Shown here piece by piece: positions 21,213-45,805 of a stretch of DNA of 64,000 nucleotides. The notes beneath the pieces were generated by a model. The model was not told the DNA's origin. It saw only the letters and a list, made by a program, of their open reading frames with translations, and did not search any database. A program made the translations under genes and the position numbers. How positions within the stretch are numbered: position 1 is the first letter of the stretch; each line of letters begins with the position of its first letter. Source of the DNA: Octopus vulgaris (taxonomy: Eukaryota); assembly GCA_951406725.2 (NCBI GenBank), contig OX597837.1, forward strand, positions 39,990,001-40,054,000. Reading direction: 5' to 3'.

Positions 21213-21312
<100 letters not shown>

Positions 21313-21321
21313 TTTATAGAA

Positions 21322-21376
21322 GGAGCTTCTACAGGACTAGAACTGTTTCATTCAAAAGAAATCATCAGGAAGCTCC
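21322..21376 (-). ncRNA. Minimal type-I hammerhead ribozyme motif
   Basis: Minus strand: ggagcttc-CTGATGA-t ttc tttt gaa t-GAAA-cag ttctagtc ctg-TA-gaagctcc; intact core, 8-bp helix I, GUA triplet. Confidence 0.75.
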
Positions 21377-21423
21377 CTGATGATTTCTTTTGAATGAAAC
21401 AGTTCTAGTCCTGTAGAAGCTCC
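21369..21423 (+). ncRNA. Second (mirror) hammerhead motif with imperfect helix I
   Basis: CTGATGA 21377-21383, GAAA 21396-21399, GTA 21413-21415. Confidence 0.6.
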
Positions 21424-21503
21424 TTCTATAAAATAAATTAATTTACTCTGCTATGTATTGAGTACCTTATTTACTGTGGTTAATCCCGACTCAACCCGGG
21501 ACC

Positions 21504-21617
<114 letters not shown>

Positions 21618-37539: not shown

Positions 37540-38128
37540 GTCTTTTCTACTGGTGGCACAAAGCCTCAGATGTGTGGAGAGGTAACTAGTCGATTATATC
37601 GACCCCAGTACGTAACTGGTACTTATTTAATCGACCCCAAAAGGATGAAAGGCAAAGTCGACCTCGGCGGAATTTGAACTCAGAACATAGCGGCAGACGA
37701 AATACCTATTTCTTTACTGCCCACAAGTGGCGACACACAGAGAGGACAAACAAGGACAGACAAATGGATTAAGTCGATTATATCGACACCAGGTCGTAAC
37801 TGGTACTTATTTAATCGACCCCGAAAAGATGAAAGGCAAAGTCGACCTCGGCGGAATTTGAACTCAGAAGGTAGCGGCAGACTAAATACCTATTTCTATT
37901 TTTTTACTACCCACAAGGGGCTAAACAAAGAGCGGACAAACAAGGACAGACATAGGTATTATGTCGATTACCTCGGACCCAGTGCGTAACTGATACTTAA
38001 TTTATCGACCCCGAAAGGATGAAAGGCAAAGTCGATCTCGGCGGAATTTGAAATCACAACGTAACAGCAGACGAAAAACTGCTAAGCATTTCGCCCGGTT
38101 TGCTAACGTTTCTGCCAGCTCACCGCCT
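37540..38128 (-). mobile_element. SINE family B, concatemer (one head plus three ~180-bp body modules)
   Basis: aaaggatgaaaggcaaagtcgacctcggcggaatttgaac recurs at ~37640, 37823, 38013. Confidence 0.9.
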
Positions 38129-43552: not shown

Positions 43553-44086
43553 TTTCAAAATATTTTCATCCTTCTCGACACAATCAAGGAGATCTTGTGC
43601 AAATGAAACCCGAGTGTGCTTTTGCTCAGCTGAAAGCAGTTTTAGCACAAACTTGGCAAACAAGTGTCTCGTTCCCAAATCTTCAGTTATAATGGCCTGA
43701 ACTGAACCGTAATTAATTTACACATCCTCTCATAACTCACGGATGGTGGTTCGACGATTTCCCTTCACAGCTACAAGCACATTTGCAATGTTTTTGACAG
43801 TTCTGCTGGTTGCGGGTCTCCCAGAACGTTCATCGATATCGACATTTTTTCGGCCATCTTGGAAACGTCTGAACCACTCGTACACTTGTGTGCGGCTCAT
43901 ACACTCCTCCCCATACACTTTCTGCCACTTTGCGCAGGCCTCTGAGCAGGTATCACCATAGCAACTTTCTCTGTCATGGTCAAGGCGACGATCACACGCC
44001 CCTTCCAAGTATTGCTGTGCACAACGGAAGTAAGCTAGAACGTTAAAACTTAATGCGCATGCACTACAGATTCCAATCTGTGCCAA
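43551..44086 (-). pseudogene. mariner transposase N-terminal (double HTH) fragment with 5' UTR
   Basis: VYGEECMSRTQVYEWFRRFQDGRKNVDIDERSGRPATS...RRTTIREL*...AKFVLKLLSAEQKHTRV. Confidence 0.9.
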
Positions 44087-44823
44087 TGGGAAAACAGATC
44101 TCCCGCCGATTTCATTAGGCAAATTTGGGGAAGTGTAATTCCCAGTCAATATCAGAGGAGAGCTGGAAGGTTTACTATTTGGTATTAGTGTTCTTAGATC
44201 GAGTGTTATGCTTGTAAGATCTAGGTGGGCGAGATTGTCTAACCGTAGTAATCTATACCCTTATCATTTGCCATATTTGTCTCCGATGACGGAATATCCC
44301 ATACTCTGGGCTATCCCAGAAAAAGCTGCAAGACGTTGAATTCTGTCTTCGAAACTCATTATGCAATTATTAATTGTCTGATAAATAAAGGGGGATATCG
44401 AACGTTCGTAGGCTTTACGTTATGTAAATAAATCGATTTTTGCTGTATTCAAATTCTCTATTTTAATTAATATTACACTACTCAATTTATATTCACATAT
44501 ATCGAATCAGATAGAAACATCTAATTGGACTACTAGAACACCATAATATGGATAGTACTGGTGTCTATTAAACACTAATATTAACGCAAGAAGACCAATT
44601 CCTCTAAATTCACAGATATATGGATAAACTGCAGGAAGCTAAGCTAGGATGTAAGACATCCCTGGAAAGAGCAATCTTTATCTTTACAAAACCTCATATA
44701 TATATGTACTTCTAATATAAGATAAAAATCCCCCCCCCCACCACCACAAAAAAAGATGCCATCAAAGTGGCAGCATATTAAAATACCTTTCAAGGCGAAA
44801 ATTATACACAATTTATAAACAAG

Positions 44824-45223
44824 GGCGCAGGAGTGGCTGTGTGGTAAGTAGCTTGCTAACCAATCACATGCTTCCGGGTTCAGTCCCACTGCGTGGCATC
44901 TTGGGCAAGTGTCTTCTGCTATAGCCTCGGGCCGACCAATGCCTTGTGAGTGGATTTGGTAGACGGAAACTGAAAGAAGCCTGTCGTATATATGTATATA
45001 TATATATATATGTGTGTGTGTGTGCGTATATTTGTGTGTCTGTGTTTGTCCCCCTAGCATTGCTTGACAACCGATGCTGGTGTGTTCGGTTCGGCAAAAG
45101 TGACCGATAGAATAAGTGCTGGGCTTGCGAAGAATGAGTCCCGGGGTCGATTTGCTCGACTAAAGGCGGTGCTCCAGCATGGCCGCAGTCAAATGACTGA
45201 AACAAGTAAAAGAGTAAAAGAGT
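44824..45223 (+). mobile_element. SINE family A, full-length
   Basis: Match to consensus; aaggg(c) repeated at both flanks (putative TSD). Confidence 0.92.
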
Positions 45224-45350
45224 AAGGGCAAAAGAAAAAAAAAATCTATGCCAATATGCTGAGGATAGACTTTAAATCGTCAGTCATGAATCTTGCTTCT
45301 GCTTTTTTCCCGTGGGTGCTTGTAAGGATTTCATTTATTTCTTATCGTGT

Positions 45351-45409
45351 TCTCTACTGAGGAGAGGAAAATCCGTGGGATTAATCCTGAAATTGATTCA
45401 ATATAGAGA
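45351..45409 (+). ncRNA. Type-I hammerhead ribozyme motif
   Basis: tctcta-CTGAGGA-g agga a aatcc gtg ggatt aa tcct-GAAA-ttga t tcaa-TA-tagaga; intact core, 6-bp helix I, self-complementary helix III. Confidence 0.72.
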
Positions 45410-45565
45410 TAATGAATTTATTTTTAAATTCTGTTAGCTTGCCTTCCTCGATTTCAGCACGACGTGTATTTATAGTGAATGCATATTGTAATGTGGTGAT
45501 TGACGATTTAAAGTCTAGTCTCAGCATATTGGCATAGAAATCTTTTTCTTTTGCCCTCGTTTATA

Positions 45566-45649
<84 letters not shown>

Positions 45650-45805
45650 GAATGGAGTAGAAAGAAGATGTTAACAAAATTCTTTTACTCTCGACATATG
45701 TTGCGAAGATAACATGGTTTCATCGAATTTTCCATGTTGACGGTAAACATAGCATAATTCATTCACCTATCGAAATATATATATATATATATATACACAT
45801 ATATA

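What the first reader, a model, noticed from the sequence alone, without database searches (positions are those of the whole stretch)
44812..45568. Inverted-end ~350-bp element enclosing an intact hammerhead with a self-complementary helix III
Seen: tctcta-CUGAGGA-[extended helix II agga/tcct plus aatcc/ggatt]-GAAA-ttga t tcaa-UA-tagaga at 45351-45409. It sits between ~75-bp inverted repeats that line up fully only after removing the SINE at 44824-45223. Helix III has little or no loop, the pattern of dimer-requiring Penelope-type hammerheads (established for that class). Its sequence is unrelated to the 21.3-kb ribozyme, so it is a second family. Inference: a non-autonomous ribozyme-bearing element that looks like a MITE but is probably retrotransposed.
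Basis: partly seen in the sequence, partly recalled or inferred. Interest (0 to 1): 0.7.

Follow-up and report, generated by a model that had tools for sequence, protein, structure and literature searches.

The report
Penelope-spread hammerhead repeat, not a MITE
This is one aged copy of a widely scattered, protein-less 499-base jumping repeat that carries a predicted self-cutting hammerhead RNA, and its mirror-image ends are the lopsided footprint also left by Penelope-type retrotransposons in the same genome, which likely copied it; the kind is known.

Summary
The hammerhead, the inverted ends and the interrupting SINE are real. It is not a MITE and not a 350-bp element. It is a 5'-truncated, 5'-inverted copy of a 499-bp non-coding tandem unit scattered over the genome, with two sister families (465 and ~492 bp). 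Across the three families the type I hammerhead keeps its core, and 13 of 20 pairs change on both sides. The window copy has the full core but two helix II changes, so 'intact' needs qualifying. Copies end at two fixed sites, mostly in (TA)n; 5' ends and inverted arms vary. In 36 of 39 classifiable inversions one arm ends at each site; an ORF-intact Hydra-like Penelope element in this genome does so in 14 of 14. The window copy follows the rule: its left arm reaches 44707. Mobilisation by a Penelope-type enzyme priming from both cut strands is the likely mechanism. No sequence-matched driver was found, and cleavage and dimer need are untested. New member of a known kind (Penelope-derived non-LTR retrozymes). 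This scan already noted retrozyme-like repeats in this genome and the one-site-per-arm pattern in other genomes.

The parts
44707..45568 (.). Whole insertion: head-to-head inverted copy of a 499-bp hammerhead unit (family A), ~460 bp plus a later SINE
44707..44823 (-).
44824..45223 (+). Later tRNA-type SINE insertion (A-box-like 44834-44844, B-box-like 44877-44887), AAG duplicated at 44821-44823 and 45224-45226; resembles octopus SINEs (recalled, not tested)
45224..45286 (-). Inner part of the inverted arm, unit positions 337-399; 3-nt overlap with the main arm at 45284-45286
45284..45568 (+). Main arm, unit positions 125 to ~410; ends at the proximal 3' site (S) into (TA)n
45351..45409 (+). 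Type I hammerhead; full core; predicted cut after A45403; helix II differs from the family at 45365 and 45388
45392..45402 (+). Self-complementary helix III (5 pairs around 1 nt), likely the dimer interface
45569..45646 (.). (TA)n microsatellite target at the right end

Best explanation
This is a 5'-truncated, 5'-inverted copy of a scattered 499-bp non-coding tandem repeat with a type I hammerhead motif, likely copied into a (TA)n site by the reverse transcriptase/endonuclease of a Penelope-like element acting in trans, and later hit by a SINE. Shown: unit length, dispersal, two fixed 3' ends, variable 5' ends, one end site per arm, covarying hammerhead helices, no ORF. Inferred steps: a tandem or circular RNA of the unit is bound by a PLE protein (probably Hydra clade); both strands of the TA target are cut; one 3'-OH primes at the proximal site S and the other at the distal site L, ~85-95 nt apart; the two cDNAs stop at random points and are joined head to head at 0-4 nt of overlap. 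The hammerhead likely cuts as a dimer through its palindromic helix III, but cutting does not set the 5' ends of genomic copies. This particular copy is probably dead.
For: Family: 1901 and 1589 first-look candidates, 40 scored each; period 499 in L009; 26 of 52 loci longer than one unit, maximum 1.43 units. Main arms end at S or L in 88 of 105 loci of three families; 60 of 105 have an inverted arm; 36 of 39 with both ends classifiable are S+L, Fisher p 8e-8. An ORF-intact PLE family (895 aa; ESM neighbours with HTH_animal/GIY-YIG/RVT_1; Hydra-like by eye against the Craig 2021 supplement) has a type I hammerhead with palindromic helix III, ends at two sites in (TA)n in 20 of 20 loci, and is S+L in 14 of 14 resolvable inversions. 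Hammerhead: 93% of cells paired and 22 double changes within family A, 0 of 500 shuffles; 13 of 20 pairs with double changes across A, B and C. The innermost helix III pair, which closes only 1-2 nt and cannot form in a hairpin, still covaries A-U/G-C (8 vs 6 rows); homoduplex -8.1 kcal/mol, hairpin 0. Inverted 5'-truncated copies and a one-sided tail are published PLE traits (PMC8557442, PMC3846280 passages); two internal RT start sites and extension of both strands are shown in vitro for PAc (PMC11167929).
Against: No coding PLE shares sequence with families A-C: 20 loci with Hydra-like ORFs and 30 GIY-YIG loci gave no terminal-repeat match, and tblastn gave nothing, so the driver is inferred from footprint only. 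Only Hydra-like queries were tried. Loci are the best-scoring 25-30 per search, so they are biased to long, well-kept copies. Three inversions break the rule (2 S+S, 1 L+L) and 21 of 60 had an end at neither site. The S-L distance (82-95 nt) is longer than the published 30-40-bp tail and differs from the 155 nt of the coding family. No cleavage, circular RNA or dimer evidence. Only 29 of 54 family A copies keep core plus G10.1-C11.1. Frangieh et al. saw no strand difference in start-site use in vitro. The A2 rows were hand-picked for intactness.
Confidence: 0.82

Rival explanations
1. The copies are terminal fragments (pLTRs) of an autonomous PLE not found here, rather than a free-standing non-autonomous unit.
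For: Short inverted terminal fragments of coding PLEs look the same; the neighbour at 45646-45775 matches the ends of an ORF-bearing locus, L159.
Against: The sequence wraps from unit end to unit start with no ORF in 46 of 105 loci longer than one unit; longest ATG ORF 41-54 aa; no shared flank beyond the unit in all-against-all coverage.
Confidence: 0.1
2. Same element class, but the inversion arises by self-priming or fold-back of one cDNA or an antisense template (Arkhipova 2013 model), or the element is moved by a non-PLE reverse transcriptase.
For: PMC3846280 proposes self-priming from junction palindromes; PMC7229834 leaves LINEs open as retrozyme drivers.
Against: Fold-back gives no reason for the two outer ends to use different fixed sites in 36 of 39 and 14 of 14 cases; there is no poly(A) or LINE-like tail.
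Confidence: 0.06
3. A MITE (non-autonomous DNA transposon) with terminal inverted repeats that happens to hold a hammerhead.
For: The window copy and 3 others among the 41 best places match from end to end of the query.
Against: Arms vary 16-432 bp, are asymmetric, are absent in 45 of 105 loci, and copies exceed one unit in tandem; no TSD seen at the window copy.
Confidence: 0.02

Closest known systems
Metazoan non-LTR retrozymes (Cervera and de la Pena 2020, PMC7229834: part 1 of 6 and passages read; Li et al. 2026, 10.64898/2026.07.22.740005: part 1 of 5, discussion and passages read)
   Same: Non-coding, AT-rich tandem unit with one type I hammerhead per unit; scattered; lives beside autonomous PLEs, which both papers propose as drivers.
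   Different: Unit 465-499 bp versus ~170-400 nt; copies seen are at most 1.65 units, with two hammerheads in 5 of 105 loci, not long arrays; PLE-type palindromic helix III and long helix II; circular RNA not shown; no cephalopod case found.
EN+ Penelope-like insertion structure (Craig et al. 2021, PMC8557442, passages and supplement rows; Arkhipova et al. 2013, PMC3846280, passages)
   Same: 5' truncation, partial tandems, adjacent inverted 5'-truncated copy, tail at one end, (TA)n targets.
   Different: No ORF; tail 82-95 nt rather than 30-40; the one-site-per-arm rule is counted here, and the passages read state it only as a tail often or optionally at one end.
Hydra-1_Obim hammerhead (PMC8557442 supplement S2 row)
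   Different: Coding element; different sequence (three family motifs absent from the supplement); hammerhead ~100 nt from the end.
PAc Poseidon element (Frangieh et al. 2024, PMC11167929, parts 1-2 of 4 read)
   Same: Two internal RT start sites downstream of the hammerhead; AT-rich targets; hammerhead cutting not needed for insertion, in line with 0 of 45 inverted arms starting within 5 nt of the cut.
   Different: Autonomous; sites 30-40 nt apart and inside the ORF; no strand preference seen in vitro.

Membership tests
Type I hammerhead | Core CUGANGA, GAAA, UH | tested here: met
   Window copy; 35 of 54 family A copies keep the full core
Type I hammerhead | Helices I-III supported by covariation | tested here: met
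Type I hammerhead | G10.1-C11.1 (R-Y) pair opening helix II in this copy | tested here: inconclusive
   Family majority has it (44 of 53 rows). Window copy: G-U plus A-C mismatch in family register (-0.9 kcal/mol) or A-U after an extra G in a slipped register (-8.8). Family C uses A-U
Type I hammerhead | Self-cleavage | not testable with these tools
   Only assembled contigs were available
PLE-type dimeric hammerhead | Palindromic helix III with very short loop | tested here: met
   All three families; feature described in PMC4209133 and PMC6765202
PLE-type dimeric hammerhead | Cleaves as dimer, poorly as monomer | not testable with these tools
   Energy and covariation only
Non-autonomous PLE derivative | Two fixed 3' ends (tail), variable 5' truncation, 5' inversion | tested here: met
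Non-autonomous PLE derivative | No coding capacity | tested here: met
Non-autonomous PLE derivative | Terminal sequence shared with an autonomous PLE | tested here: inconclusive
   No match in 50 Hydra-like loci; other clades and most of >6000 candidates not examined
Non-LTR retrozyme | Type I hammerhead in a short non-coding tandem unit | tested here: met
Non-LTR retrozyme | [quoted passage not shown] 'active') | tested here: inconclusive
   Not met by the window copy; 5 of 105 loci carry two
Non-LTR retrozyme | Expressed as monomeric linear and circular RNA | not testable with these tools
   No raw-read RNA run offered
MITE | Constant symmetric terminal inverted repeats | tested here: not met
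MITE | Fixed short target-site duplication | tested here: inconclusive
   None visible at the window copy; TA-rich flanks hide short ones

The most novel reading that the evidence does not exclude
Three related retrozyme-type families with no detectable sequence link to any coding element are mobilised in trans by Hydra-clade PLE proteins through obligatory two-site twin priming: each cut target strand primes at a different fixed site on the RNA. The conserved 82-95-nt S-L segment would be a portable recognition signal, and the set gives direct genomic evidence for the enzyme long suspected of moving animal retrozymes.
Probability: 0.5. Interest if true: 0.6.

Novelty: new member of a known kind. 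Interest (0 to 1): 0.36.

Why it matters
As an element it is ordinary: hammerheads in PLE ends and retrozymes are published, including an octopus PLE hammerhead with the same 1-nt helix III loop. Its use is as test material. The same one-site-per-arm footprint in coding and non-coding families of one genome ties retrozyme-type repeats to PLE machinery and gives a sharp prediction for the unsolved PLE integration step. Three covarying families also give natural variants for a monomer-versus-dimer cleavage test. Repeat pipelines may mislabel such copies as MITEs.

Tried and rejected
Rfam found no hammerhead; ARAGORN found no tRNA. MFE folding of the window motif does not give the hammerhead fold, z -0.5 to -1.7, so energy alone is no support. 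One search used a helix I register off by one and is superseded. Model R1 could not be run on this genome, so copy numbers remain first-look candidate counts. Driver search: GIY-YIG fragments beside L015 and L018 are unrelated neighbours; a 38-nt hit to L161 is low-complexity; Pfam gave no family for the 895-aa ORF. Cleavage site as 5' boundary: 0 of 45 inverted arms start within 5 nt of the cut and 14 run past it; rejected. A conserved GTAAGT just upstream of the hammerhead suggested an intron; no GT..AG joint appeared in contigs, which cannot show absence. Expression: no RNA holder listed; contigs of runs only guessed to be RNA cover families A and B; no conclusion drawn. One search included three empty rows, so its consensus fold was used only by eye. 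Sequence look-ups in earlier findings were blank for A and B. Lunse et al. 2017 was not held and is cited only through PMC6765202. PMC13282606 (octopus repeat annotation) has no 'ribozyme' in its main text; its libraries, Repbase and Dfam were not seen and may already hold these families. bioRxiv supplements were not available.

Full report
Observation. It is the only type I match in the window, and 0 of 200 shuffled windows gave one at the same, post hoc thresholds. Rfam misses it. The inverted arms are real and continue across a SINE at 44824-45223 that is flanked by AAG. The 21.3-kb motif shares no sequence with it.

Family. A search of the own genome (2.8 Gb; likely an octopus, inferred from literature matches and the recalled look of the SINE) gave 1901 first-look candidates. 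Of the 41 best places, 37 match only the last ~280 bases of the query, not the left arm. Loci that run further show a 499-bp unit that wraps onto itself. In 52 distinct loci (60 fetched, 8 dropped as the same place or a near-duplicate) identity to the reference averages 87%, and 26 are longer than one unit. Two sister families turned up by chance: B (465 bp, 67% to A, 2883 candidates, 30 loci) and C (~492 bp, 2360 candidates, 23 loci after dropping 2 duplicates). None has an ATG ORF above 54 codons. Candidate counts are not copy numbers.

Anatomy of the window copy. The main arm covers unit positions 125 to ~410 (45284-45568) and ends in (TA)n. The inverted arm covers 337-499 and runs from 45286 across the SINE to 44707, 105 bases beyond the reported start. 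The arms overlap by 3 nt at the junction. The apparent 75-bp terminal repeat is only the part that both arms share.

Ends. Main arms stop at one of two sites, S or L, in 88 of 105 loci (43 of 52, 29 of 30, 16 of 23). In A these lie 164-174 and 256-263 nt past the predicted cut; 64 of 105 are followed by strongly TA-rich sequence. 5' ends are scattered. Sixty of 105 loci have an adjacent inverted arm of 16-432 bp; the same test on distant flanks fired in 1 of 105. Of 39 inversions with both outer ends at S or L, 36 have one of each (21 main S, 15 main L, 2 S+S, 1 L+L; Fisher p 8e-8). The other 21 have at least one end elsewhere; the window copy was among them only because the SINE splits its arm, and it is S+L. 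This rules out a MITE.

Autonomous comparison. Intact PLE reading frames exist in this genome. One family has a 3625-bp tandem unit and an 895-aa protein whose Atlas neighbours carry HTH_animal, GIY-YIG and RVT_1 domains; by eye it resembles Hydra-1_Obim in the Craig 2021 supplement. It has a type I hammerhead with a palindromic helix III, and 20 of 20 loci end in (TA)n at one of two sites, ~65 and ~220 nt past the cut. Of 20 regions checked for inversions, 14 were resolvable and all 14 are S+L; 5 had no inverted arm and 1 ran off the stretch. The footprint is the same, but no terminal sequence is shared with A-C in 50 Hydra-like loci. The driver is thus inferred.

Hammerhead. Within family A (54 rows) 93% of cells pair, with double changes in helix I (14 rows), helix II (5) and its extension (2); 0 of 500 shuffles reached this, though related copies inflate such counts. 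Across A, B and C (18 hand-picked rows, 14 distinct) 13 of 20 pairs change on both sides while the core stays fixed. Helix III stays self-complementary in all three. Its innermost pair closes 1-2 nt yet covaries, which a hairpin cannot explain and an intermolecular duplex can (inference; duplex -8.1 kcal/mol). A monomer with four pairs and a 3-nt loop is energetically neutral, so dimer dependence is likely, not shown. Genomic copies are decaying: 35 of 54 keep the full core, 29 also G10.1-C11.1. The window copy keeps the core but differs at 45365 and 45388. Cleavage does not mark 5' ends: 0 of 45 inverted arms start within 5 nt of the cut and 14 pass it, in line with PAc, where cutting is dispensable for insertion.

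Mechanism. Shown: the structure and end statistics above. Inferred: a tandem or circular RNA is bound by a PLE protein, both strands of a TA target are cut, each primes at a different internal site, and the two cDNAs join head to head. Two start sites and two-strand extension are shown for PAc in vitro (PMC11167929), though without strand preference. The rival self-priming model (PMC3846280) does not predict one site per arm.

What is known. Hammerheads in PLE ends (PMC4209133, parts 1-2 of 4), inverted truncated copies and one-sided tails, non-LTR retrozymes and their proposed PLE drivers are all in print. Searches for octopus or cephalopod with hammerhead or retrozyme returned only Craig 2021 as relevant; Penelope with twin priming returned nothing on PLEs. 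The library lacks most subscription papers and repeat databases. Earlier AI notes of this scan describe a 359-bp retrozyme-like family in this genome and one-site-per-arm priming in other genomes (seen after my count); they are unchecked and are not counted as support.

Verdict. Real feature, new member of a known kind, interest 0.36. The added value is the matched S+L footprint in coding and non-coding families of one genome.

Noticed in passing
window 45646-45775 (-): Second PLE terminus sharing the same (TA)n: a small head-to-head insertion whose two parts match opposite-strand places in ORF-bearing Hydra-like locus L159, with a decayed hammerhead 3' half.
   Followed up: partly
window 21307-21507: The 21.3-kb motif is a perfect 132-bp palindrome (21307-21438) with ~70 extra bases on the right arm, between (TA)n tracts: again one short and one long arm.
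   Followed up: partly
L146, L166-L205 (G000 C1:119516000-119525900 and others): Young, ORF-intact Hydra-like PLE family, copies 97-99% alike, tandem unit 3625 bp, long-helix-II hammerhead; further intact frames of ~840 and ~1090 codons in other families.
   Followed up: partly
window 45321-45326; families A-C: A GTAAGT donor-like motif ~35 nt upstream of the hammerhead core is conserved in all three families (mutated in the window copy); possible intron as in D. virilis Penelope.
   Followed up: partly
window 44707-44823; families A-C: The segment between the two end sites is well conserved across families and holds short palindromes; candidate protein-recognition signal.
   Followed up: no
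L004, L010, L027, L028 flanks: Another hammerhead-like repeat family lies in the same TA tracts as family A copies.
   Followed up: no
window 43733-44260 (-): Open frame whose end looks like a mariner transposase helix-turn-helix (recalled motif).
   Followed up: no
window 37588-38076: 190-bp tandem repeat, 2.6 copies, 86% matches.
   Followed up: no
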